From Vermamoeba vermiformis (taxonomy: Eukaryota): DNA of 20,000 nucleotides. The stretch lies in assembly GCA_045837725.1 (NCBI GenBank), contig JBEWZL010000276.1:484635-504634 (forward strand). The letters are read 5' to 3'. The notes under the pieces are model-generated. The model saw nothing but the letters and a program-made list of their open reading frames with translations. It made no database searches and was not told the origin of the DNA. Both the position numbers and the translations under genes were made by a program. Below are positions 537 to 20,000 of this stretch, piece after piece (position 1 is the first letter of the stretch; each line of letters opens with the position of its first letter).

Positions 537-2843
537 TTAGCTTATCTGTTCAATAGGAGCCTCGTCGAGCCACAACTTATGGAACAAGTTATAGAGTTCA
601 GCAGACACAGACACTTTGTACGGTGTTGGGTTCAGTTGTCGCTTGTGGTCCTCACGAATGATGTCGAATTGTTTGCGCGAGTACTCGCGAACTTCTTTCA
701 GTGAAGGCAGAGCAACCTACGAGAGGGTGTTAGGAGCGATGGGATAATGCGTGGATGTCCTTTACCTTCTTGCCCATGTCCCAGACCAAGTGATGCAAAG
801 GCTCCACCGAGCTGGGTGTTACCTGATGATACGTGTCAAAACGGAGAACTGTTTCGAAGCTCTAGCAATGTACTTACATAGGCTCGCTTTGATTCGTCAA
901 AAGGATGTCTGCAGAGAATGCTCTTGTTCACTTCAGGTGCCTCGTGACCTACTTCAATCATCATGTCCAAAATTGCTTTGCCGTTTTGACCAAACAGTCT
1001 GCCAGCAAGTTAGGCTACTAGATACTTGGCTACAAAAGTAGTGCAACATACCTGAAGGCTTCTTTGCGAGCAGGAATGGTCACTTTGCTAATGCCCTCCG
1101 ACAACTTAAGTCTAGCCTGGTTATTGATGGAGACAAGTTTGTACACGCAGCCCAACGCCGGTTGTGCTTGACACGTGACCAAGTGCGTGCCGATGCCAAA
1201 GATGTCAATTTCGTGCTTTTGCTGATTGAGTGAGTAGATGGTTGTTTCGCTGATATCGCTGCTGGCACAGATTTTGATCTTGGCAAATTCGGGCTTATTG
1301 TACTCCTGCGCGATCGACGCGAAGATTCTACGAGTCTCACGTGACAAGTACGCCAAGTCGCCAGAGTCCAATCGAATGCCCACGGGCGAGTACCCGAGTT
1401 CTATTAATGCTAGCGCAACGAAACAAAAGTTCATCACACCTGATTTGAGAGTGTTATATGTGTCGACCAGGGCTAGATAACTATGAGGGAAGGCCAGAGC
1501 ATACGCTACAATGACAGTGTTAGCAGTAATACGCTAAATTTAGCGATGAAGTAACTCACCAATAAACGCTGCGAGTTCACCTTCGTTGGGGTCAGCGTTC
1601 AGCTTGAATTTGCTCTTGTATTTCAATACGATATCAACAAAGTCGTGCTCTTTGCCATCGGTGTCAACCTAATTCATAAGTTAGTCAATGTATCTTAATT
1701 GGAGCAATTGCTCACCAAAGTTCGATGATGCAAGTCGCGGAGTGAAGTAAATGATGACACGAAAGCATGAGCGTGAGTGCCTTAAACGTCTGTTAGCGAG
1801 TAGAGATTAAATTAAACAGTGATGTACCTGAAATCTCGATATCAAATAGTTGGCCAGCTTTTACGTTGCTCGTCTTGTCAAATCCACCAACAAAACAGTA
1901 TCGACTCGCAGAAATGCCACCGTCTATAATGCATTAGACCCATCGTATTAAATTGAGTGCTAATTACCAGGTCCTTGTGCTCTTCTCAAGCCGAATTCAA
2001 GCAATACTTTGTCTTCGCCTGCAGCATAGCGCATCCGCGCTGCATTTGTAGCAACCAAGCTGATTATCGATTATTAGACTTGTCCTCATGATATTATTAC
2101 TGAGCAAGTACCTCGGGTAATTGACAAGATTCAAAAGTGTCGTTTCTAGAAGCTACGATTATAAAGTTAATAAAATTGGTAGCAGGATCCAGATCCTTAC
2201 CTGACCAACAGCTAAGGGACCTTCAATTCGTAATAGAGGAATATTGGGGAATGTTACTGAACCTTCTTTAAGCGCGTAGACTTTCAGCTTGCTGCAGTCC
2301 ACTGTTGCTAACCAATCGAAAAATCCTTTGTCCGCGTGTGGCATAACGCGTTGCAAATAAGCGATATCTTCCGCATTGAATTTATACGTGTCGATAAATC
2401 GCAAGCACTAAATTTAGCAACGGGTCAGCTTTTGATTGCAGAAAAGTAAATAAAATTGGTTCTACGAAATATTTTCTAATTTCAGCCCAATTATTACGCT
2501 GATCAATATCGTTCATATTTGTATTTTATTGCACTTACCTCTTCTAAGCCGCAAAAAATAGTAAATTCACCGCCAAAAGGATTTTTTCTGAAATACAAAT
2601 CGAAGACAGCGTGATCCTCGTGCTTTGAATTTTTCCAATAGCCATAAGCCTACAAAAAAGTAAATTTAGTGTCCATTCGCAGGCAGATCCAGCGGCGTAG
2701 GCGGGAAAAATCAAGAGACCCGATCTCCGTCCCCCGCTAATTCTGCGGGCTGAAAATTGCATTAATATTCCTACCATTGTTATTTGATAAAAGTCCGTCA
2801 GCAGAGGACTCGTTAAATTATTGACTGGGCGCTGGTGATCCAT
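537..2843 (-). CDS. NAPRT: Nicotinate phosphoribosyltransferase, multi-exon
   Basis: Exons give [16 protein letters not shown]...[105 protein letters not shown] and C-terminal [18 protein letters not shown]...EAPIEQIS*. These are hallmark eukaryotic-type NAPRT motifs. Confidence 0.95.
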
Positions 2844-3084
2844 CTGAAAGTCTCGTGATATCGTACAAAAAAATATTTAGCTACGCAATAACGAGACTAA
2901 GAGTACTATAATAATAACCAATTCTTAGCTTCGTGGTATTACGTTCGGTGTGCAGTTGGAAAAAAAGCCTGCCAAAACTTCTTGGCTTACGTCAAACAAA
3001 TGTTTTTGTTCTTGTTGTACATTCTAAACAATAGACCTTACACTGATTTGGATTGCACGATACTCTTAAGTGAACCTATTGCAG

Positions 3085-10091: not shown

Positions 10092-10729
10092 ATTCCATCC
10101 CTGAATACGATACCCCCCGTTGCACGTGCTACTCGTATGGAATGTTTGTTAAATAGCAAAGCGAGGTAGCATTGACGGGGATTTCGAAACACCTTTAAAT
10201 CGAATCCAACAATCGATACCTTAGAACTTCACTGACAACCCTAGTCTAGTTTGCGAATTGTACATAATGTTAATATAAAATAATAATGAAGCGTCAAAAC
10301 GAAACGAAAATCGCAGGGTGGTGCTGTCGCTCAAGAGGTGTCACCACGGACGGCATATCAATAACACGTAAAAATTAACAAAATGCTTAAGTGCTTTACG
10401 TTGTTGACTCGTCCAGGAGAATTAGTGTCGTTTGTTTTTAATGGCAGTGTAAATGTCAATAGAAACGGGACCAAATGAACATCACAAAAAAGTATTGCCC
10501 TTTCTGACAGGAATACAACAACGCGTATTTAGCACCAATCTATTATTATTTAAATATACAAGTTTATTGCGATAACAGTATTGGCGAAGTGCTTTGGACA
10601 AACAGCGAGGTTAGATTTGATCAACTTTTTTTTCAATATAGAAGTGCGCTAAAATATACGTCATTCATCAATTTTGTTCCTAATATTTAAATTTACCTTT
10701 TGAAATATTAATTAAATATTTTAGAGATA

Positions 10730-13609
10730 ATGGATTCGATAGACGACCTACCACCTTCAGACGCAGCCGAAACTACAAGCTCGCACGATTTTTATTTATA
10801 TTCATTCCCCGACGAAGTTGTTATGGCCATTCTTTCGTTCATGGCTGCGCCAGATCTCAATAATTTGTCTCAGTGCTCAGTATTTTCTCAACATTTGGCC
10901 AATTCAAACGAGCTATGGCACGATTTGTTCACACGCGATAAGGCTGGTGTTCAACTATTAACAAGGCGTCAAAAGGTACGAGAGGAGAGTTCGGATGAAG
11001 AATTCGGTAAGTACGATCTACTCTTATAAATCTTACCTCAAACTTCGATGTAGACTTTGATGATGACGAGGAAGAGGACGAGGATATGGCGGAGGAAGCT
11101 GCACTACGAAGAAAAAGAAAGCTTGCATTGTTCAAGCGACTCAAGAATTTGTTGTGGCGGAGCGCCATGTCCAAGAACGAGTCCGAGTCCTCTGAAGAGC
11201 CCGCGCAGAAGAAAATCAAACTTGATTTAAGTGAGGAGCCGCAGAACAACGATGAAGAGAAGAATGAGAGTGAGCCTACTCCGAGTAAGTACAGCATCCG
11301 AAGGGCGATCTGAACAGAACATAAATAACATGCTTATTGTAGTGGAGCTGGAACAACCCGTAATAGTCGATGCCGCTCAAGACTTTTACGATTGGAAAGC
11401 AATTTATCGCAAAGCTAAGCCTTACGACTCAATTCAAGAAGCCGTCGACATGGCAATCGTAAGTAGTAGAGATTTGAGTTTCGCAAATACTAAGACTCGA
11501 AAGGACGGTGATACCATTATTGTGGGTCCTGGTCTGTATAAAGAAGGTATTCTGATCGAGAAGGCGATAAGTCTTGTTGGCAACGATTTCGAGAGCGTTA
11601 CGGACTCGAAAACTATTGAAAGAATCAAGAAATTGAAGAGAGACAAGCAACTCAAAGAGTCGGCGGGTAAGATATCATTTGGTTTTACGTTCGATTTACT
11701 AGCAGATCTTATCAGTGTTTACTTGTCTGCCATTCTTCGCTTATTAACTCTGTTGCAGAGGTCGAAAAGAAAAAGAGCGAAGGAAAAGAAGAAGTTCCCG
11801 AGAAGAAAGAGCGCATGATCGAAGAGTGGGAAAAAGGGCGCGTGATTTTATCGAGCAGCACGTACAACACAATCGAAGTCACGGTTAACACCAAAGTGTT
11901 GGTGAAGGTAAAGACATATCGATGCTGATTGTCCTGAAGCGGTGATGTGTTATTAACGATTGTGCTCAGAACATCTCGATTCAACAAGCAGTGAAACCTC
12001 CGAACAAGTGCTTCGGTGTTTGCGTGGATGTTGGCACTGTCACGCTCGATAACTGCGAGATCAGCTCGTCCTCCCTGTCCACTGCCATCGTAAGGAAGAG
12101 TGGCACATTGACACTCACGAATTGTTGGGTCAGTGATTCAGCGCAGATCGGTGCTTTTGCCGTCGGAAACTCCAATTTGATTGTGCAGTCTTCGAGTAAG
12201 TAACTTTCGAAACTAATAACTTATGTTTTAACTTGTTACAGCTTTCGAGCAGACACTGAGTTACGCCGTTGCATGTCTCAATGGCTCATCGTTGGTGCTC
12301 GAGAAGAACAAGATTATTGAGTGCGGCGGTGTTAAGATTGAAGAACACGGCACACGCGCGTTGCAAATCAACCACAACGAGTTTTATCAGCAAGTCTGGA
12401 CAGTACGTCGACTATATAGAGAAGTATACTTGGCTAATGGTTCTTGTAGGCTTTGAGAATTGACAAGACAAACGACATCGTGCTTTGCAACAACACGATT
12501 CATAAAGGCAAGACGCTTGGCATCACTGTGAAAGATTTAAAGGTACATCCGCGTGCTAAAATAGCAACTAATAACGTGCGCAGAGTGGTCTCATTGACGG
12601 CAACAAAGTTCAAGACAACGTCAAGTCCGGCTTGTTGATGCAGGACTCGCAAAACGTCGTCATCACCAACAACGTGTTTAGCGGAAATGGCGACTGCGGT
12701 GTTGATGCAAAAGATGTGAAAGACGTTACAATAGCCAACAATACCATCGTAAGTGTATTACAGCCATTGCGAGTACGGGCTGCTTAATCGACTGACAATC
12801 GCCGCAGGAAAATAATCTGATGTCGGGTGTGGATCTGTACAACTCGACAGCTGTCATTGACGGCAACAAGATCAATCACAACAATACTGGTGTCTACGCG
12901 TTTCACAAGTGCGTGCTCGAAGTTCGGAACAATACGTTGAACAAGAACAAGACCAACGGCCTAGAGATACGCATCGGAGTTCCCGTGAGCATTGAAAATA
13001 TGATTGGCAATACCGCGGAGTACAATGGTCAAAATGGAATCATAATTTGCCGACGTGACGATGGTGAGGCATCTGCCATTGACTCGGCATTCTTAACTGC
13101 TAACAACAAGTTAATGGGAAATTCGCACGAGGATCTGTTCGTGGAAGTCAAAAAGTATGCCTTCGATTCGGATCTCAAGCTGTCATTCGAAACTAGCGAT
13201 AAAGAAAAAGGCGAAAGTAAGCTCTCACAATATATTAAGCGTTTGACTAATGAGTATTGTTAGTCACTGCCGATGTCGAAGAGGCTATTAAGCGCGGAGT
13301 TTGCACGTTCTCTTACACTGGATATCACTTCCACCCGCAGTATTGGTAGGTTTAATAGACCGTCAACTATTTTACATCATGATTAATCCGCACTCGTAGG
13401 TGGACATGCGAGACGTGTAGTCTGATGGCTGGCAAGGGATTTTGCGCTGTTTGCAAGGACAAATGTCATAAGGGCCATTTGGTAACGCAAGAACCCCGGT
13501 TTGGTGGCTTTTATTGGTAAGATAATATTTACTGAAGTACGTTACTTCACGAGGTTTTAAACTAATAATTTACAGTGACTGCGGAGCCGAAATGCGATGT
13601 GTTGAATAG
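10730..13609 (+). CDS. FBXO11: FBXO11-like protein: F-box, right-handed beta-helix (CASH/PbH1) repeats and C-terminal UBR-type zinc finger
   Basis: F-box FPDEVVMAILSFM..DLNNLSQCS....LANSNELWHDLF; YDSIQEAVD..GDTIIVGPGLYKEGILIEKAISLVG; Asn/Gly-rich beta-helix repeats; CTFSYTGYHFHPQYWWTCETC..GFCAVCKDKCHKGH..FYCDCGAEMRCVE*, TAG 13607-13609. The domain order matches FBXO11; orthology is not proven. Confidence 0.8.
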
Positions 13610-13619
13610 ATACTTCATA

Positions 13620-14777
13620 TTAAAGACTTAGAGTTAAACCGATTTGTGAGTAGACGGTATCGAGCTCTTGTCCTACGTATTCTGGAGTGAATGTTTGAAC
13701 GCGTTCGCGCCCTTTTTGGCCCATCTGTTGTCGAAGGTCTGGATCAGCTTGCAACAGGGCCAACTTCGTCGCTAGGTCATCGACGCACTTGGGATCAACA
13801 ATGTAGCCATTTTGACCTTGCTCGACAAGCTCTTCAGCGGAGATAATGCTGCTAGTGACGATGATGGGCTTGCCAAACCACATGGCTTCCATTGCGACCA
13901 TACCTTGGGTCTCCATGAGAGATGGCAAGACAAACACGTCGCAGGCTGCGTAGTAGCCGGCTAGTTGATCGTGTTGAACAAACCCGAGGAAGTGCACTTT
14001 GGGTGACAGGCTAAGTCGAGCGCAGAGTGCCTCAAGAGTCGGTTTCAGGGATCCTTTTCCTGCTATCCACAACGAAGCATTGGGCTGCGTTTCGACGAAC
14101 TTGGCAAAGGCCTTCACAAGATATTCGACATTCTTTTCTTCTTCGAGTCTTCCGGCAAACAAGACAACGAACGAAGAAGGGCGCTCTGGCAATTGAACTT
14201 CGGACGAAGCCTGTTCGAACACAACTGGATTGCTGATGAAGCTGACTGGAGCTTCGATTTGTTGCCGCAACTCTTCGGAGAATTTTTTGGACACAGCGAT
14301 CACTTTGTTGCAGCTGTTGCAATACTTGACAATCTTCTTGCTGATCATCGATTTGAGGGGTCGCATGACGTTCTTGGCCAAGTGATCAACGGTCATGTGA
14401 TACGTGTAGACGCTGGGGATGTGGAGGTCTTTGGCGATTTTCCGCAAGCGAACCAGTAGTAATCCGAGATAGTGGAAGTGGATGATTGATGGTTGGATCT
14501 GCTGCACAATGCGCTTCAACTTGGCAGCCGAGGCAATGGCTTGATAATAGCCCATGACCTTCATAGTCTTCGCGCGATAGACGCTAACGCCGTTCCAGTC
14601 TTCTCTCGATTGCTGGTGAGATCGACGTGTAGTGATGATGGAGACGTCATAATTAAGCGCCACCAGCTGTTGTGCAATGCATTGGACGTGAAATCCAACG
14701 CCTGTCATAGCGGGTAGGAAATCTTCTGTCACGAGACACACTGCTTTACGAAGGTGAGTCTGCGTTATTTCAGTCAT
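13620..14777 (-). CDS. Glycosyltransferase family 4 (GT-B), intronless, resembling bacterial diacylglycerol glucosyltransferase-like GT4s
   Basis: Uninterrupted 385-aa ORF. N-terminal VTEDFLPAMTGVG, VYTYH, VLFAGRLEEEKN, VHFLGFV and DVFVLPSLMETQGMVAMEAMWFGKPII (E-x7-E motif), GQNGYIV. Confidence 0.9.
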   Translation of the reverse strand: MTEITQTHLRKAVCLVTEDFLPAMTGVGFHVQCIAQQLVALNYDVSIITTRRSHQQSREDWNGVSVYRAKTMKVMGYYQAIASAAKLKRIVQQIQPSIIHFHYLGLLLVRLRKIAKDLHIPSVYTYHMTVDHLAKNVMRPLKSMISKKIVKYCNSCNKVIAVSKKFSEELRQQIEAPVSFISNPVVFEQASSEVQLPERPSSFVVLFAGRLEEEKNVEYLVKAFAKFVETQPNASLWIAGKGSLKPTLEALCARLSLSPKVHFLGFVQHDQLAGYYAACDVFVLPSLMETQGMVAMEAMWFGKPIIVTSSIISAEELVEQGQNGYIVDPKCVDDLATKLALLQADPDLRQQMGQKGRERVQTFTPEYVGQELDTVYSQIGLTLSL

Positions 14778-14971
14778 GATTCTAAGCTATTGTTACTACT
14801 ATTGAATGCTCGAATTAAAATAGTGTTTATTCACCTCACATTTCTTTATACAGGGCTGAACCGAAGATTTCGTCGATTCACAACTGCGAGCGAATATTTT
14901 TGGAAAACTCGTTTTGCAGACCCTATGAAGCTTCAAGAACAAGTGAACAATGTTGATCATGTCTTCGAATA

Positions 14972-16860
14972 ATGGTTTTGAAGAGCTCTACGAAAATCAA
15001 GTTTGACGATCCGCGTTGTCGTAAGTGAATTGGTGTCACATGATTCTGGCTTTCGAAATTTATTCGTACTATTGGAATGTTATTTAATGTACATACTACT
15101 AACGTAACAATGAATCGAGTGCGAGTGCTCCACAACTTTCAACTTTCAATTCCGCTGTTGATTCAGTCCTCCGAAGCCAGCATTAATTGCAGCGATACAA
15201 CTAGCAATTATTTCGGTTTCACGTGTTTGACGACAGATTTTACAACAGATCAACTTATTTTTGTTATTCAATTTTATTGCGAAAACGACAACGGAGAACG
15301 CGAAGAAAGACAATGTTTGGAATGGGCAAAAAATCCGTAATAGGCGAACGAGTGGATGGTGCGATAACGAGCCTTATTTTGCGGGTGCGGATCAAAGAAG
15401 GAGTTTTTGATTTCAGAAAAAAGAAATTGCAAATAGGAAGAATAATAATTACGGGTTACTCAGCGAATGGTTCGAAAATTACCGAATTTTCCACCGACCC
15501 GTTTTTAATATGCGTCAAAACCAACAAATCCGTAGATCACGAAGGTAATTTTAAATTATCTATTTTTAAATATTAAAGAAATATTTATTGAAAAGAATAA
15601 TCACCAACGCGTGGCTCATTTACTCTTTTACCCTATTTTATGCTAGCATGTCTAATTAATGCTTGTGCAGTCACGATCCCGCTTCATTGCAATGCTGCGC
15701 CACAGCCGATTGAACAAAGTGCAGACTCGGCGATTAAAAATGCTTCATCAAGTCACATTGAAGATTCAGAACAAAGTTACGACTCAGAGCAACATGGCTC
15801 ACACAACTCCGAGCTATTTTCGATGGAAGAGTGCGTGTCCCCCTTACTTTCGTTTCAAACTGACGGACATTTAGGGACTATGCCGTGCTGCACTTCGGCA
15901 ACGCAGAGGTCGCGGGCAATTTTCGTGCTTTGAATTTTTACAAGGCGTCTGATCAACGCATCAAACAGGACATTGAGCGAATACACGCAGGTAAGAATTC
16001 TTTCAACCAAGTTACCAGTCAACGGTTTAACTAACGCTTGCAACGCTAGCTCAATGCCGCCAAACAATACTTTGCATCGAAGGTGTGCGATATCGCTTCA
16101 AAGACAACTTCGTAAGGACGCAACAAAGGTTCATTGGCTACATCGCGCAACAGGTTCAGCAGTTTGTCCCTGAGGCCGTGAAGTATATAAATGGTACGCA
16201 CCTTGTTACGTGTTTGATGAGGTCTAACAAATCTTGCAGGAATATTGCACGTTGACTACGAGGCACTTATTCCGTACATTAGCGAGTCTGTGCGACAAAA
16301 TTACCACGATATTAATCGCCTCGAAGACGATGTGAATCAGCTTCACGCGCTCATCGATCATCTTTACGCACAGTATCCAACGACTTGAAGCAGAGACACA
16401 ACAGCGCAAGGTGGCACCATTAAACAAGGTCGTAGAATATCCAAAGAAGCGGAATAAGCACTGTGGATCAATCGTTGGCGTGATAGTGAGTGCCTTCCTC
16501 GCTGTGGCAGTGCTGGTGTCGATATTGGTCATCTATCGTCGTCCTTTGACTCTCACGCACATACCAATTAGCAATCTAACAGCAGCAACGGCACCGAACT
16601 TCGAAAGAGAGTATTTAATAGAATTTTTCAATGCGACAAACGGCTTTAGCTGGAAGAAAAATGACAGCTGGCTGACCAGTGGCTCTATCTGTTATTGGTA
16701 CGGTGTTGTTTGCAATGCAGAGAATCGCACGGTTTTCTTGTCATTGCCCAGAAACAACTTGTACGGCACGATCCCACCTTCAATCAATCATCTATCGCAC
16801 CTGACGCATTTGGATTTGTCTCTCAACCTTCTTTTTGGCATTATTCCCACCCAACTTTAG
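14972..16860 (+). pseudogene. Disrupted MYRF/MrfA-like gene: uncharacterised N-terminal domain + peptidase S74 (ICA) autocleavage domain + coiled coil + TM + LRR ectodomain
   Basis: Spliced reading: ..LHFGNAEVAGNFRALNFYKASDQRIKQDIERIHA|AQCRQTILCIEGVRYRFKDNFVRTQQRFIGYIAQQVQQFVPEAVKYING|ILHVDYEALIPYISESVRQNYHDINRLEDDVNQLHALIDHLYAQY. After a 1-nt frame change it continues QRLEAETQQRKVAPL..KKRNK-TM(16471-16536)-LRRNT-LRR. The frame is broken near 16375 and possibly near 15330, and the gene is truncated at TTAGGG. The start codon is uncertain (14972 or 15110). Confidence 0.75.
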
Positions 16861-16868
16861 GGTTAGGG
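16857..16868 (+). repeat. Interstitial telomere-type repeat (TTAGGG)2
   Basis: TTAGGGTTAGGG at 16857-16868. The core AGGGTTAGGGAT recurs at 17098-17109 and 17316-17327. Confidence 0.9.
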
Positions 16869-17097
16869 ATAATATAATCCCTTAGGTACGTCATGGATCT
16901 GGTGCGGAGCGAACGCGGCGGCAGCCGCGTGAGCGACATATAATTAAACGCACCCAGATTACTGATATTTCTTTTAAATTTTAGGTAAAACGGCCATTAT
17001 AACCGCGATAATAGGCCCGCAATGCTTGAAATTCCTCTCGTCTCAGGAATTTCAATTTGAGCACGCGATCCCGACTGGCGATTTATTTTGGGGTTTG

Positions 17098-17532
17098 AGG
17101 GTTAGGGATCAGGTGACCAGATCCCGAGCCGTAGATCTCGCTTTCGCTCGCGATTTGAATCGCAATTGTTGCAGGTAATAATAGGCAATAGTAATGTCAA
17201 TCAGTTTTCTAATATGTTTTACTAGCAGGGTACACGGGCGAGCGGAGCGAGCCCGTGCAAAGCGCGATGTCAGAAATTCCATTCTGACATTCTGACACGA
17301 TGTCAGAAACTGGTTAGGGTTAGGGATCAGGTGACCAGATCCCGAGCCGTAGATCTCGCTTTCGCTCGCGATTTGAATCGCAATTGTTGCAGGTAATAAT
17401 AGGCAATAGTAATGTCAATCAGTTTTCTAATATGTTTTACTAGCAGGGTACACGGGCGAGCGGAGCGAGCCCGTGCAAAGCGCGATGTCAGAAATTCCAT
17501 TCTGACATTCTGACACGATGTCAGAAACTGGT
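17098..17532. repeat. Tandem duplication, two apparently identical 217-bp copies (17098-17314 and 17316-17532; period 218)
   Basis: Read directly: both copies start AGGGTTAGGGATCAGGTGACC and end GATGTCAGAAACTGGT. Confidence 0.95.
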
Positions 17533-17936
17533 CGCGCTGTATTTACGCCTCGCGATCATTAGCAACAACACAGGTAAGTAGTATATTATTATAATTGTTA
17601 TTATTAATCACTACTAACTGTTATTTTGTTAGTATTAGCAGTGCGAAGTCGAATCTTGCTCGCGATTTTCAGATCGACCCCGGAATCAATTCGAAATCAC
17701 TTGTAAGTAACATATTAATTTATTTAAAGCGTATTTGCTCACAACTAATGTATTTTTGAGTAGGAATTAATTTGGAATTGCTCGAATCTGCCGTAATTTA
17801 TTTAAATTTCAAATTTTAAAGTCCCGATCAACAGGTAAGTTAATATATCAATATAAACATTCATATATTAATTGTTTTTAGTAGATTTAATCTCTTTATC
17901 ACGCGAGTTTGCCGAATAAATTTCGGTTGGTTACAA

Positions 17937-20000
17937 ATGCGTAAGTTCAATTCAAACACGCGTGTTTCGCTCTTTATTAATGCACTTGACTAGAATTTAA
18001 CTGCGATCAATGCTCTAAGAGCTACAAGAAGATTGGCGATCTCAATCGCCACGTGAAGGACTGTCATGTTGATGAATCCTCGCGGACATGTCCTTCGTGC
18101 TCAAAGATTTTCGCATCTGTGCGTGCAAAAGATGAACATGTGGCGAATGTATGTCCTGCTGACCGTGCAAAATTGTGGACACCAACAAAACAAATAAATG
18201 ATAGTCAAAACGAGCAGCAGCGCCACAAACAATCAAAGAATGAGCTGTCTGCACAGTCAGTTCAAATAATCACAATGTTCAGAGAGTATTTGGCTGCTGG
18301 CAGTTCTTCCACGTTTATGTTGTCGCGTGGTAAACGCAACTTGTCTCAGTCAAGTGTCGACACTTACACTCACCACCTGCGTGACTTCTTAGATTTCTTT
18401 GACGTATGTAATTACAATTATTGTTGTTATAGAAACTAATTTTGCCTAGAAATCTGAAACAGAAGGTGAGGACTCCATCAAGTACTTTCTTGACTTGCGT
18501 GTCCTCAAAGATTACTTATCGTACCAAGAAAAGAGCAAGTACACCAAAAAGACAATCTTGAATCGATTGTTTTCATTAGAGCGTCTTTGTGGATTCATCG
18601 AAGAAAAGCTGGTTGTGCTAAATAACGAAGGCTTCACCACGCTTCCTGTCAATAAGCGTACACGCAATACAGTACAATCAGTGTTCGAATGGATTGGGGC
18701 TCAAATACAAGTTCTAAGTCCAGAAGCAGCTGAGGAGACACGAATCCGCAACTCGAAGGAAGTTATGGAAAAAGAAAATCGTTGGATCACTGCCAAGCAA
18801 ATCTTTGCCAAAGAGCTTGAACTCAAGCCAGAAATTGACTTGATAATGGAGCGTATTAGCAAGACCAATGTGCAGTAAGTTATCTTTTTGTCGGAGAGAA
18901 AGCATACTGATTCTAATTGATAGGCCCTCTATTCATGAATTGAACCTTGTTCAAGACTATATCATGTTCTTGTTGCTCATTCAGCGCCCCACAATGCGCA
19001 CTCAGAACTTGAGCTTGAAAATACTCGATAAAGTGCAGACAGCCAAAGAAGCCAAAGAAAATTGTATTGTTTTGACAGATACTGAAGTCATCGTTCAGTA
19101 CAATCAATACAAGACTGTAAAGTAAGATCGTGCTTGGTCATATTGTTGAAAACTAATAATGCGATTTAGAACTTATGGATTTCAAACTGCTTACTTGCCG
19201 AAAGACCTTGCTCAATACTTAAGAACCTTTGTTAAATCCATTCGACCATGGTTTTACAAGAACAAAGAGAAGCAAACAGTTGGGTCATTCTTATTTTTAA
19301 ACAAGAACGCAGAAGAGCTGAAAACTATTGGCTCTCGCTTCAAATCAATTATGCAGAAGTATTTTAATAGCAATGCTTCTGTAAGCTCTATTCGCAAGGC
19401 AATGGAGACTGCAATTGCTGCTAGTTCACTGCCAGAAGACCAAAAGCGCAGTCTGTCATTGGCAATGTTGCATGACCCCGTTACTGCTGAACGATATTAT
19501 GTAATGAAGGACAGTGTTGAAGAAAGCCAGCAGATTAACAGGCAATGGGCAATATTTCGACAAGCTCTACTGACTCAAGTCCAATCTCCAGCAACAATTG
19601 TTAGTAATAATGCAATTGCTTCAACCAACAATAATGCAACAGAAGTGCTCCAACCTGCTTGCAATCATCTTGAATTGATTCCAACTTCAACATTGTCGAG
19701 TCCATCAAAACTCAGAGTCTCTGACCCTCAAGCTGATGCAGTGCCAAGTCTTGCTTCTTCAGTGTGCAACTCAGCTGAAGAAAGTGAAGAAGAACAAAAT
19801 GAAACGACTCGGCAGCTCGCTGACAATATTGCGCAAAAGCTTGTACATCCTACGCCAAGTCCAATGCTTAGTCCAAGCAAGTTTCCTTTAAGGCCTGGAG
19901 ATTGGCCTTGCTCTTTTTGTGGGTACACCAACTTTGCTTACCGTGGAGTTTGTAATCGCTGTGGCAAAGCCAAGAACAAAAGAAGTGTTTATGAAGAAAG
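17937..20000 (+). CDS. Tyrosine recombinase with N-terminal C2H2 + C2HC zinc fingers and C-terminal RanBP2-type zinc finger; 3' end outside the window
   Basis: Exons 17937-17940, 17994-18403, 18450-18874, 18924-19121 and 19170->20000 splice in frame. They give MQFNCDQCSKSYKKIGDLNRHVKDCH..TCPSCSKIFASVRAKDEHVANVC, a core-binding-like region (LSQSSVDTYTHHLRDFLDF; TKKTILNRLFSLERLCGF), the catalytic motifs RPTMRTQN, YKTVKTYG, SSIRK and AMLHDPVTAERYY, then RPGDWPCSFCGYTNFAYRGVCNRCGKAK. Confidence 0.85.

What the first reader, a model, noticed from the sequence alone, without database searches (positions are those of the whole stretch)
15876..16860. MYRF-like self-cleaving S74 domain joined to a type II TM helix and an LRR ectodomain: candidate receptor-type membrane-tethered transcription factor
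Seen: after removing two short introns the frame encodes SDQRIKQDI (Ser 15948-15950, Lys 15963-15965), IGYIAQQVQQFVPEAV and ILHVDYEALIPYISESVRQ, then a coiled coil. A basic KKRNK patch precedes a hydrophobic helix, followed by an LRR N-cap (W..CYWYGVVC) and LxxNxLxGxIP repeats with N-glycosylation sequons. The ORF track does not show the S74 domain. Known: S-D-x-R-x-K is the Ser/Lys dyad of the intramolecular chaperone autoprocessing domain of phage tailspikes, animal MYRF and Dictyostelium MrfA, where it trimerises and releases an N-terminal DNA-binding fragment from the membrane. C. elegans MYRF works with a separate LRR-TM protein, PAN-1. Inference: here the LRR sensor is fused in cis, suggesting a one-component ligand-regulated self-releasing signalling protein. 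I do not recognise this architecture as described.
Basis: partly seen in the sequence, partly recalled or inferred. Interest (0 to 1): 0.85.

Follow-up and report, generated by a model that had tools for sequence, protein, structure and literature searches.

The report
Self-cleaving LRR receptor gene, broken copy
The window holds a damaged copy of a gene from a protist family in which one membrane protein joins a DNA-binding-like domain, a phage-type self-cutting module and an outside leucine-rich-repeat sensor, which suggests a direct surface-to-nucleus signalling device.

Summary
The + strand carries one five-exon gene (ATG 15110 to 16856). It encodes a 145-aa all-beta N-domain, an acidic linker, a Peptidase_S74 domain (Ser 15948-50, Lys 15963-65), a coiled coil, a KKRNK patch, a TM helix, an LRR N-cap and the first two plant-type LRRs. 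All four introns are in phase. With X at two frameshifts, the spliced product aligns colinearly with P0056, a 706-aa single-ORF metagenome homolog.

The window copy is broken. It has a 1-nt frameshift near 15336 and an extra base at 16377. A TTAGGG-ended, probably Crypton-like element sits after 16856. DNA contigs of the same species label lack the last two lesions, and allelic differences are 20 synonymous to 7 non-synonymous.

The S74+TM+LRR fusion recurs in 24 of 79 metagenome loci, always within one ORF, with Ser and Lys kept in 22 of 22 motifs.

The N-domain matches no model in the local Pfam copy. Two AlphaFold models both match the EBF1 DNA-binding domain best (Z 9.1 and 8.7). A MYRF-like self-releasing membrane-tethered factor is the best reading, but cleavage, DNA binding, ligand control and expression are untested.

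The parts
15110..15544 (+). Exon 1. It encodes the N-terminal all-beta domain (MNRVRVLHNF...WAKN / VIGER...FDFRKKK...). A 1-nt frameshift lies at about 15335-15337.
   Evidence: tblastn of P0056 matches residues 1-75 in frame 2 (15110-15331) and residues 89-134 in frame 1 (15364-15501). The family alignment is A2. An X2 contig covers 15250-15414 with no gap, so the frameshift is present in that DNA too.
15545..15670 (+). Intron 1 (126 nt, GT..AG, in phase).
   Evidence: The junction DHE|VTIPL aligns without a gap to DHEVTIGL of P0056.
15671..15830 (+). Exon 2. It encodes the Ser/Asp/Glu-rich acidic linker.
   Evidence: The VTIPLH motif is shared with P0056, P0071 and P0078.
15831..15874 (+). 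Intron 2 (44 nt, GTGCGT..TTAG, in phase).
   Evidence: One X2 haplotype has a 2-nt deletion here at 15839.
15875..15990 (+). Exon 3. It holds the stalk and the start of S74: GNAEVAGNFRALNFYKASDQRIKQDI. The catalytic Ser is at 15948-15950 and the Lys at 15963-15965.
   Evidence: Pfam PF13884 profile positions 1-28, E=0.015. The same motif occurs in 19 of 24 family loci.
15991..16049 (+). Intron 3 (59 nt, GTAAGA..CTAAC..TAG).
   Evidence: One X2 haplotype has two 1-nt deletions here, at 15997 and 16000.
16050..16193 (+). Exon 4. It holds the S74 core (CIEGVRYRFKD...FIGYIAQQVQQFVPEAV).
   Evidence: Pfam PF13884 E=2e-7, 31.6 bits against a cut-off of 22, profile positions 15-58.
16194..16239 (+). 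Intron 4 (46 nt). The position is shared with P0002 and P0003, which read through it.
16240..16856 (+). Exon 5, truncated. It holds the S74 C-terminal helix (ILHVDYEALIPYISESVRQ), a coiled coil, KKRNK (16444-16458), the TM helix (about 16465-16536), the LRR N-cap (about 16603-16713) and LRR 1-2. One extra base at 16377 shifts the frame.
   Evidence: The only X2 contig over 16377 lacks that base (depth 212 of 212). P0001 (93% identical) reads through both this site and the insertion site.
16857..20000 (+). Inserted mobile element that truncates the gene. Its left end is TTAGGGTTAGGGAT. It carries a 217-nt unit repeated at 218-nt spacing (17098-17314 and 17316-17532) and multi-intron ORFs with C2H2 fingers, a weak integrase SAM-like N-domain and a RanBP2 zinc finger. 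It runs off the window.
   Evidence: An X2 contig of 913 nt leaves the window sequence after 16856 and continues GGGTCAAATACAATCGCTAAAATCTATCAA. Joined to 16855-16856, this reads LGQIQSLKSI, the same residues that follow TQL in P0001.

Best explanation
The window carries a recently disabled allele of a gene from an expanded family in microbial eukaryotes.

**Domain order, N to C:**
1. An N-terminal beta-sandwich of about 145 aa. Near-invariant residues are F10, P15, WAKR and FDFR, and the domain usually ends in LLPKKR.
2. An acidic linker.
3. A Peptidase_S74 intramolecular-chaperone autoprocessing domain with its Ser/Lys dyad.
4. A coiled coil.
5. A basic patch.
6. One TM helix.
7. A plant-type LRR ectodomain of about 300 aa with Cys-rich N- and C-caps and N-glycosylation sequons.

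**Inferred topology:** type II, with the N-terminus in the cytoplasm and the LRRs outside.

**Proposed mechanism, by analogy with MYRF and MrfA:** the S74 and coiled-coil segments of three chains assemble. The Ser/Lys dyad cuts the chain just before the Ser. A trimeric N-terminal fragment is then freed from the membrane and probably goes to the nucleus as a DNA-binding regulator. The LRR ectodomain would supply the cue or gate for assembly or trafficking.

**Shown:** the architecture, its conservation, the catalytic residues, purifying selection and the lesions in this copy.

**Inferred:** cleavage, trimer formation in vivo, nuclear and DNA-binding activity, and ligand control.
For: **One gene.** Four GT..AG introns are in phase. 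The spliced product, with X at the two frameshifts, is 492 aa with no stop. It aligns colinearly with the single-ORF homolog P0056 (38% identity over 465 aligned positions) and has no gap at any of the four exon junctions.

**Domains.**
- S74 scores 31.6 bits in the window and E=1.5e-14 in P0056.
- The P0056 ectodomain matches plant LRR receptor ectodomains. The best is GSO1 at E=6e-125.

**The fusion is conserved.**
- P0002, P0003, P0056 and P0057 carry S74+TM+LRR.
- 24 of 79 fetched metagenome loci have S74 and LRR hits in order on one strand.
- In 24 of 24 of these, the LHVDY motif and a TM helix lie in one ORF. In 21 of 24 that ORF also matches a strict LRR pattern.
- Clustered at 95% identity, these ORFs from 23 of the 24 loci (L006, identical to L005, left out) plus P0056, P0057 and P0002 give 20 groups.

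**Catalytic dyad.** The motif was found in 19 of 24 loci, plus two second genes and the window. S-x4-K is kept in 22 of 22 motifs.

**Trimer model.** Three copies of P0056 residues 196-350 scored 0.91 in each of three runs, against 0.00 for the best of three controls.
- The runs agree in at least 88% of contacts, and the partner pLDDT is at least 85.
- In the tool's calibration, the mark was reached by 20 of 30 proteins solved as pairs of one chain and by 1 of 23 solved as single chains.
- S74 trimers have been solved, so this pass may come from memory.

**Topology.** Net charge is higher on the N-side of the TM in 21 of 23 sequences. There are 2-9 N-x-S/T sequons after the TM in 23 of 23. No hydrophobic N-terminal signal is present, because the domain starts at Met1.

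**N-domain.**
- 27 of the 29 full-library phmmer hits cover the whole domain.
- The AlphaFold2 models have pLDDT 90.8 and 89.4.
- The best match among 48,161 chains is the EBF1 DNA-binding domain both times: Z 9.1, rmsd 3.5, 128 aligned; and Z 8.7, rmsd 3.5, 126 aligned.
- DNA-binding beta-sandwiches fill 11 of 50 and 15 of 50 listed rows. They include RBPJ, CEP-1, velvet, Ndt80, CP2c, STAT, Rel/NFAT and MYRF.

**Selection.** Of 36 substitutions between the window and the X2 contigs in 15798-16806, 20 are synonymous, 7 are non-synonymous and 9 are intronic. Three of the five indels fall in introns.
Against: - No experiment and no RNA supports the gene. Three RNA-seq runs of the same species label were each 46-48% read. 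They laid 6, 14 and 9 reads, all at or beyond 16838, so none fell on the gene. None fell on the neighbouring GT4 gene piece either, so these runs may simply be uninformative.
- The window copy cannot make the protein. It has frameshifts near 15336 and at 16377 and the insertion at 16857. An X2 contig also has a 1-nt deletion at 15502 inside exon 1.
- The fold match is middling. The tool states that a best Z of 7-8 is typical for models without a clear relative.
- Foldseek found no PDB match at E<=0.001, and TM-scores were 0.35 or lower.
- The N-domain profile found no PDB sequence below E=1 and no family in the local Pfam copy.
- The alignments show no conserved Cys/His zinc knuckle of the kind I recall for EBF.
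- A shared beta-sandwich fold does not show DNA binding.
- In mammalian cells MYRF cleavage is constitutive, so ligand control need not follow from the architecture.
Confidence: 0.5

Rival explanations
1. The protein is a self-processing trimeric surface LRR protein and not a transcription factor. S74 acts as in phage fibres, as an assembly chaperone that trimerises the chain and then cuts itself off. This leaves a trimeric coiled-coil/TM/LRR receptor-like protein in the membrane. The N-terminal beta-sandwich would be a cytoplasmic adaptor, a regulatory cap or a discarded pro-piece.
For: - S74 plus the coiled coil is the best conserved part among paralogs: 51% mean pairwise identity, against 32% for the LRRs and 19% for the juxtamembrane/TM segment.
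- The trimer model interface runs along the coiled coil.
- The N-domain has no sequence-level link to any DNA-binding family.
- Non-DNA-binding beta-sandwiches also score Z 6-8 against the model, for example transglutaminase N-domains and the S-layer protein SlaA.
Against: - In phage fibres the mature functional part lies N-terminal to S74 and the chaperone is C-terminal and released. Here the large LRR part is C-terminal, which is the MYRF arrangement.
- The N-domain is strongly conserved, with near-invariant WAKR and FDFR and a common terminal LLPKKR. That is unexpected for a discarded pro-piece.
- The top fold match in two models is a DNA-binding domain.
Confidence: 0.3
2. The family is virus-derived or mobile-element cargo. 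On this reading it would be a fibre-like or host-recognition gene of polinton-like or giant viruses integrated in protist genomes, and not a cellular signalling gene.
For: - Passages of PMC12220804 say that S74 domains are ubiquitous in polinton-like virus fibre proteins of protists.
- The family is multicopy, with tandem arrays in L033 and L061.
- The window copy sits beside a mobile element.
- ESM Atlas look-alikes of the N-domain-plus-S74 part include viral S74 clusters, but at a score of only 0.80, which is a lead only.
Against: - The window gene has four spliceosomal introns like its neighbours, and one intron position is shared with P0002 and P0003.
- S74 lies mid-protein and is followed by a TM helix and a glycosylated LRR ectodomain. 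It is not at the C-terminus of a fibre.
- The N-domain model has only weak matches in the viral structure library, with TM-scores of 0.42 or lower.
- The adjacent element interrupts the gene and does not carry it. An empty allele exists.
Confidence: 0.05
3. The S74 part and the TM-LRR part are two separate neighbouring genes, or a chance juxtaposition, and the reading as one protein is an artefact of joining frames.
For: In the window the two parts are in different frames, and no RNA read joins them.
Against: - An X2 contig lacks the extra base at 16377, which puts both parts in one frame.
- P0001 reads through the same site.
- P0056 is one 706-aa ORF.
- In 24 of 24 loci the S74 C-terminal helix, the TM helix and the LRR region share one ORF.
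Confidence: 0.02

Closest known systems
MYRF / Dictyostelium MrfA (self-cleaving membrane-tethered transcription factors)
   Same: The order of parts is the same: an N-terminal beta-sandwich domain, an S74/ICA domain with a Ser/Lys dyad, a TM helix and a C-terminal non-cytoplasmic domain. A homotrimer is predicted through the ICA and coiled-coil segment. The MYRF mechanism is taken from the abstracts and listings of PMC3742443, PMC3742440, PMC3828593, PMC5436001 and PMC8326128.
   Different: - The N-domain is not NDT80/PhoG. There is no Pfam hit at E<=1. The fold Z to the MYRF or Ndt80 DNA-binding domain is 5.0-5.5, against 8.7-9.1 to EBF1.
- There is no MYRF_ICA or MYRF C-terminal domain hit.
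- The extracytoplasmic part is a plant-type LRR solenoid.
- The family is multicopy, with tandem arrays, and not a single developmental regulator.
C. elegans PAN-1 (LRR-TM protein) acting with MYRF-1
   Same: An LRR ectodomain is functionally coupled to an S74-cleaved membrane-tethered factor. PAN-1 and MYRF bind through their extracellular regions, and PAN-1 gates MYRF trafficking and cleavage (abstracts of PMC8099431 and PMC12803276).
   Different: In C. elegans these are two proteins acting in trans. Here the LRR and the S74 module lie in one chain. I did not test sequence relatedness between these LRRs and PAN-1. The nearest solved LRRs are plant receptor kinases.
Plant LRR receptor-like proteins and kinases (GSO1, FLS2, PEPR1 ectodomains)
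   Same: The repeats are 24-residue LxxLxLxxNxLSGxIP units with a Cys-pair N-cap and N-glycosylation sequons. P0056 matches GSO1 at E=6e-125 and FLS2 at E=3e-110.
   Different: - The orientation is opposite. These are type II proteins with no signal peptide and the LRRs C-terminal to the TM helix.
- There is no kinase domain.
- The cytoplasmic part is an S74 domain plus a beta-sandwich.
EBF/COE DNA-binding domain
   Same: It is the best structural match of the N-domain in two independent models, covering almost the whole domain: Z 9.1 with 128 of 147 residues aligned, and Z 8.7 with 126 of 153 aligned.
   Different: - Sequence identity is only 10-16%.
- The N-domain is shorter, about 145 aa against the 180-195 residues of EBF1 spanned by the match.
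- The alignments show no conserved Cys/His that could form the COE zinc knuckle. I recall that motif from memory.
- There is no Pfam hit.
Phage tailspike/endosialidase C-terminal chaperone and polinton-like virus fibre proteins
   Same: The Pfam family is the same (PF13884), and so is the S-x4-K dyad. There is weak direct similarity to a phage long tail fibre distal subunit, 6f45, at E=0.4.
   Different: In those proteins the domain is C-terminal and is released from a mature fibre (passages of PMC12220804). Here it is internal and followed by a coiled coil, a TM helix and an ectodomain.

Membership tests
Peptidase_S74 / intramolecular chaperone autoprocessing domain (PF13884) | Match to the family profile above the curated cut-off | tested here: met
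   The window piece holding exon 4 scores 31.6 bits against a cut-off of 22. P0056 scores 54.4 bits, P0057 42 bits and P0002 25 bits.
Peptidase_S74 / intramolecular chaperone autoprocessing domain (PF13884) | Catalytic Ser and Lys five residues apart (S-D-x-x-x-K) | tested here: met
   The window reads SDQRIK at 15948-15965. The dyad is kept in 22 of 22 motifs, found in 19 of 24 loci plus two second genes and the window. I recall the dyad definition; it comes from no call.
Peptidase_S74 / intramolecular chaperone autoprocessing domain (PF13884) | Homotrimer formation | tested here: inconclusive
   The model of three copies scores 0.91 against 0.00 for the best control. S74 trimers have been solved, so this pass may come from memory. 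It is a prediction only.
Peptidase_S74 / intramolecular chaperone autoprocessing domain (PF13884) | Autocatalytic cleavage at the Ser | not testable with these tools
   This needs expression of wild type and Ser/Lys mutants.
MYRF/MrfA family | NDT80/PhoG-type DNA-binding domain N-terminal to the ICA domain | tested here: not met
   PF05224 gave no hit at E<=1 in P0056, P0057 or P0002, or in the 30 N-domain sequences. The fold Z to Ndt80 or the MYRF DNA-binding domain is only 5.0-5.5.
MYRF/MrfA family | MYRF_ICA extension and MYRF C-terminal domain 2 | tested here: not met
   Neither is listed among the Pfam hits at E<=1. The C-terminal part consists of LRRs.
MYRF/MrfA family | ICA domain followed by a single TM helix, with the N-terminus cytoplasmic | tested here: met
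   A TM helix lies 70-130 residues after LHVDY in 24 of 24 loci. Charge bias and sequons are consistent with an N-in topology.
COE/EBF DNA-binding domain | Fold similarity over the whole domain | tested here: met
   3mln_A scores Z 9.1 (rmsd 3.5, 128 aligned) and Z 8.7 (rmsd 3.5, 126 aligned). It is the top row in both searches.
COE/EBF DNA-binding domain | Zinc-knuckle Cys/His motif and a sequence-profile match | tested here: not met
   No Cys or His is among the invariant or near-invariant columns of A2 or A4. There is no Pfam hit and no PDB sequence hit below E=1. I recall the motif definition.
Plant-type LRR receptor ectodomain (LRRNT_2 plus LRR repeats) | LRR repeat profile matches and a Cys-pair N-cap | tested here: met
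   In P0056, LRR_1 scores E=7.7e-28 and LRR_8 scores E=8e-25. LRRNT_2 is only sub-threshold: 14.7-19.1 bits against a cut-off of 20.7. PDB LRR receptor kinases match at down to E=6e-125.
Plant-type LRR receptor ectodomain (LRRNT_2 plus LRR repeats) | Signal peptide, type I orientation and a cytoplasmic kinase or short tail | tested here: not met
   The LRRs are C-terminal to the only TM helix. The protein ends at the Cys-rich C-cap, and there is no kinase hit.
DG1062_N (PF28397, Pfam 38.1) | Match to the family profile | not testable with these tools
   The only evidence is an ESM Atlas look-alike lead: score 0.85, with 54-60% of cluster members carrying the family. The local Pfam copy gave no such hit. 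Two literature searches for the name found nothing biological.

The most novel reading that the evidence does not exclude
These proteins are one-component surface-to-nucleus receptors. Ligand binding to the LRR ectodomain would drive or release trimerisation of the S74 and coiled-coil segment. The chain would then cut itself and send an EBF-like DNA-binding trimer to the nucleus. The family's expansion into many diverged, tandemly arrayed and frequently broken copies would mark it as a recognition repertoire of protists (for prey, pathogen, mate or kin). Fusing the LRR and S74 parts in one chain would make it a Rosetta-stone counterpart of the PAN-1/MYRF pair of animals.
Probability: 0.2. Interest if true: 0.9.

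Novelty: new variant of a known kind. Interest (0 to 1): 0.72.

Why it matters
MYRF and MrfA are the only characterised use of the phage S74 self-cutting module to tether a transcription factor to a membrane.

- **A second use of the module.** This family would be a second and independent domain combination built on the same logic. It differs from MYRF at both ends: a putative DNA-binding domain of another type and a bona fide ligand-binding ectodomain.
- **A natural test of outside control.** It offers a natural test of whether S74 cleavage can be controlled from outside the cell.
- **Link to PAN-1/MYRF.** An in-cis fusion of LRR and S74 is independent comparative support for the functional link between LRR proteins and MYRF seen in C. 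elegans.
- **A candidate receptor class.** It points to an unstudied class of candidate receptors in microbial eukaryotes.
- **The N-domain.** Its N-domain, about 145 aa long, has no model in the Pfam copy used here.

Tried and rejected
- **Whole genome of the window:** none is held, so paralogs in this genome could not be counted.
- **Earlier scan notes:** nothing relevant was found by place, by sequence or by words. The one sequence hit, e1-3115117, is an unrelated bacterial module.
- **First metagenome scan with P0003:** 58 pattern matches, none confirmed. The scan with A3 worked.
- **Word-index search with the P0056 N-terminal region:** it found only P0056 itself among 557 candidates. The full HMMER library was needed. 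From that list I dropped P0086 and P0087. They are proteins of 1000 and 598 aa hit by six short stretches at E of about 8e-4, which looks like repeat noise.
- **Foldseek of the N-domain model:** against the PDB it gave no match at E<=0.001 (best 1.0e-3), only generic Ig-like rows with TM-scores of 0.35 or lower. Against viral models, 4 matches reached E<=0.001, but all were generic beta-sandwiches with TM-scores of 0.42 or lower.
- **PDB sequence searches:** the N-domain profile hit only ribosomal protein S18 at E of about 1. An S74+coiled-coil piece of L013 hit only 6f45, at E=0.4.
- **ESM Atlas:** all scores were 0.85 or lower, so they are leads only.
- **RNA-seq:** no read fell on the gene. 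This shows neither expression nor silence, because the neighbouring gene piece was also empty.
- **Rejected splice ideas:** I considered a very short 21-nt intron at 16372 to explain the frame change, and an 80-nt intron at 15337-15416 to explain the exon 1 frame change. I rejected the first because the X2 contig and P0001 show a simple 1-nt difference. I rejected the second because the skipped stretch is homologous to coding sequence in P0056.
- **Off-by-one:** my first exon coordinates were off by one and gave a garbled translation. This was corrected.
- **L022:** the catalytic motif was not found although the region upstream of LHVDY (at 405) should be on the contig. I did not follow this up.
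Full report
**1. What is in the sequence**

Stop-to-stop ORFs on the + strand between 15044 and 16860 form a chain of short frames. Pfam finds Peptidase_S74 (PF13884) in two of seven window pieces.
- Piece 15864-16034 scores E=0.015 and 16 bits on profile positions 1-28.
- Piece 16031-16255 scores E=2e-7 and 31.6 bits (cut-off 22) on profile positions 15-58.
- Piece 16336-16860 has sub-threshold LRRNT_2, LRR_1 and LRR_8.
- The other four pieces hit nothing.

Ser is at 15948-15950 and Lys at 15963-15965 in SDQRIK.

**2. The whole gene**

Homologs showed that the gene is larger than the finding. P0056 is a 706-aa single ORF from a metagenome. It has an N-terminal domain of about 146 aa, a linker, S74 at residues 227-285 (E=1.5e-14), a coiled coil, a TM helix, an LRR N-cap, LRRs and a Cys-rich C-cap. 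It then ends.

tblastn places P0056 residues 1-75 at 15110-15331 in frame 2 and residues 89-134 at 15364-15501 in frame 1. The resulting model is:
- exon 1, 15110-15544
- intron, 15545-15670
- exon 2, 15671-15830
- intron, 15831-15874
- exon 3, 15875-15990
- intron, 15991-16049
- exon 4, 16050-16193
- intron, 16194-16239
- exon 5, 16240 onward

Read through with X at the two frameshift sites, the model gives 492 aa with no stop. It is 38% identical to P0056 over 465 aligned positions, with no gap at any of the four junctions. For example, DHE|VTIPL aligns to DHEVTIGL.

**3. This copy is broken, but recently**

The window copy has three lesions.
- A 1-nt frameshift lies near 15336. A DNA contig of run X2 (same species label) covers 15250-15414 without a gap, so the frameshift is present in that DNA too.
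- One extra base sits at 16377. The only X2 contig there lacks it (depth 212 of 212), which gives LYAQYQRLEAE. P0001, at 93% identity, reads LYAQFQRLEAE.
- An insertion follows 16856. A 913-nt X2 contig continues instead with GGGTCAAATACAATCGCTAAAATCTATCAA. In frame this reads LGQIQSLKSI, exactly what follows TQL in P0001.

X2 also shows a 1-nt deletion at 15502 inside exon 1.

X2 carries two sequence variants over most of the gene. I classified the 36 substitutions listed between 15798 and 16806. I left out three in the GT4 gene and one in the element, and the tool did not show one further substitution. Of the 36, 20 are synonymous, 7 are non-synonymous and 9 are intronic. Three of the five indels are in introns. 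This is the signature of a gene that was under purifying selection until recently.

Three RNA-seq runs, each 46-48% read, laid 6, 14 and 9 reads, all at or beyond 16838. None fell on the gene or on the 487-nt piece of the neighbouring GT4 gene. Expression is therefore simply unknown.

**4. The fusion is a family trait**

- The search with the TM-LRR piece gave 55 proteins among 1475 candidates. The top three are P0001, P0002 and P0003. P0002 and P0003 read from the S74 core through an in-frame intron into the coiled coil, TM helix, LRRs and C-cap. The other 52 are LRR-only matches, mostly plant receptor kinases.
- A region-restricted search gave 5 proteins among 909 candidates. Three of the five carry a precomputed PF13884 together with LRR families.
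- A metagenome scan with alignment A3 returned 79 loci. Of these, 24 have S74 and LRR hits in order on one strand, and 55 are LRR-only.
- In 24 of 24, LHVDY and a TM helix share one ORF of 263-510 aa. In 21 of 24 that ORF also matches a strict LRR pattern.
- The N-domain is found in 13 of the 24. It lies upstream of S74 in 9. In 4 it lies after the LRRs, as the start of the next gene in a tandem array. In two of those four, L033 and L061, the next gene's catalytic motif is also on the contig.
- Fourteen of the 24 loci share one contig-name prefix and six share another. Clustered at 95% identity, the LHVDY-ORFs from 23 of these loci (L006, identical to L005, left out) plus three of the proteins form 20 groups. 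Pairwise identity among the groups ranges from 25% to 88%. This is therefore a diverged multigene family.
- The motif NGNAEV.GNFRALNFYKASD...K was found in 19 of 24 loci. Four of the five misses have the exon off the contig, and L022 is unexplained. Ser and Lys are kept in 22 of 22 motifs, counting two second genes and the window.

**5. Topology**

The protein starts directly with the beta-domain at Met1 and has no N-terminal hydrophobic signal. Net charge in the 15 residues before the TM helix exceeds that after it in 21 of 23 sequences. All 23 have 2-9 N-x-S/T sequons after the TM helix, and Cys-rich caps flank the LRRs. I infer a type II orientation, with the N-domain and S74 in the cytoplasm and the LRRs outside.

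**6. The S74 module**

Three copies of P0056 residues 196-350, supplied with alignment A3, scored 0.91 in each of three runs. The best of three controls scored 0.00. Contact agreement was at least 88% and the partner pLDDT at least 85. In the tool's calibration, the mark was reached by 20 of 30 proteins solved as pairs of one chain and by 1 of 23 solved as single chains. The interface includes residues 209-238, which span the dyad, and 290-338, the C-terminal helices. Trimeric S74 structures exist, so this pass shows likeness and may come from memory.

**7. The N-domain**

- A full-library phmmer search with P0056 residues 1-147 found 29 proteins at E<=1e-3. Of these, 27 (151-325 aa) cover the whole domain, nearly all from their own Met1.
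- Near-invariant residues are F10, P15, W73, K75, R76 and F103-D-F-R106. Most sequences end the domain with LLPKKR followed by an acidic stretch.
- No family in the local Pfam copy matches.
- ESM Atlas points, as a lead only (score 0.85), to clusters carrying PF28397 DG1062_N. I could not test this.
- AlphaFold2 gave confident all-beta models for P0056 residues 1-147 (pLDDT 90.8, pTM 0.84) and for P0077, which is 25% identical to it (pLDDT 89.4, pTM 0.81).
- Against 48,161 representative chains, both models match the EBF1 DNA-binding domain best. The first gives Z 9.1, rmsd 3.5 and 128 aligned. The second gives Z 8.7, rmsd 3.5 and 126 aligned.
- In the second search the next unrelated row scores 6.9. 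In the first, SlaA scores 8.3.
- DNA-binding beta-sandwiches fill 11 of 50 and 15 of 50 listed rows.
- The tool warns that a best Z of 7-8 is common for models without relatives. I therefore take this as moderate support for a p53/Rel/EBF-like fold and as no proof of DNA binding.

**8. Comparison and novelty**

The logic matches MYRF and MrfA: a DNA-binding-like domain, an ICA domain, a TM helix and an extracytoplasmic domain. Membership fails on the NDT80 domain, the MYRF_ICA extension and the MYRF C-terminal domain.

[quoted passage not shown] In this family the LRR is in the same chain.

Searches for S74 or 'chaperone of endosialidase' together with LRR and transmembrane terms returned only the C. 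elegans PAN-1/MYRF papers and other MYRF or unrelated papers. In a recent screen for membrane-bound regulators, none of the ten passages that held my search terms mentions such a fusion, and 'S74', 'LRR' and 'leucine-rich' do not occur in its main text. Within that library I found no description of this fusion.

I class it as a new variant of a known kind.

**9. Verdict**

The architecture is real, conserved and under selection. The window copy is a disrupted allele. The mechanism, self-cleavage releasing an EBF-like N-fragment with LRR input, is the best-supported reading at about 0.5. The main rival, at about 0.3, is a self-processing trimeric surface LRR protein without nuclear function.

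Noticed in passing
window 16857-20000: A mobile element interrupts the gene.
- It begins with TTAGGGTTAGGGAT. The same 14-mer recurs at 17096 (93% identical) and at 17314.
- It holds a 217-nt unit repeated at 218-nt spacing, 100% identical.
- It holds multi-intron ORFs with C2H2 zinc fingers, a weak Phage_int_SAM_1 hit (E=0.009) and a RanBP2 zinc finger.
- By eye, the last ORF has tyrosine-recombinase-like motifs, so it may be a Crypton-like element. That is my reading, not a tool result.
- The few RNA-seq reads laid all fall on its left part.
   Followed up: partly
window 13620-14786 (- strand): An intronless 388-aa GT4 glycosyltransferase (Glycos_transf_1, E=1.6e-43) lies head to head with the S74-LRR gene, about 320 nt from its ATG. 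An intronless gene among intron-rich neighbours could have a bacterial origin. I did not test this.
   Followed up: no
window 10712-13263 (+ strand): A multi-exon gene whose last ORF carries right-handed beta-helix repeats (Beta_helix, E=9.7e-6; NosD, E=0.0029). By eye, the first exon looks F-box-like. I did not test this.
   Followed up: no
window 1030-2876 (- strand): Exons of a nicotinate phosphoribosyltransferase gene (NAPRTase, E=4.8e-4 on one exon).
   Followed up: no
window 15502: A T5/T4 length difference between the window and an otherwise identical 131-nt X2 contig falls inside exon 1. The T4 form would stop the frame after STDPF. It is either a second disabling allele or a homopolymer error in one of the two sources.
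   Followed up: partly
L033:2172-3424 and L061:6923-8089: Family genes stand in head-to-tail tandem arrays. The N-domain and catalytic motif of a second gene follow within about 100-200 nt of the stop of the first.
   Followed up: partly
P0059-P0085: Most N-domain proteins in the public library are ORFs of 150-240 aa that end soon after a conserved ...LLPKKR...EGK. This looks like a conserved exon end read into an intron by prokaryote-style gene callers. P0071 and P0078 run on into the VIPxxW linker motif. These records are probably first exons of larger genes and not small proteins.
   Followed up: partly
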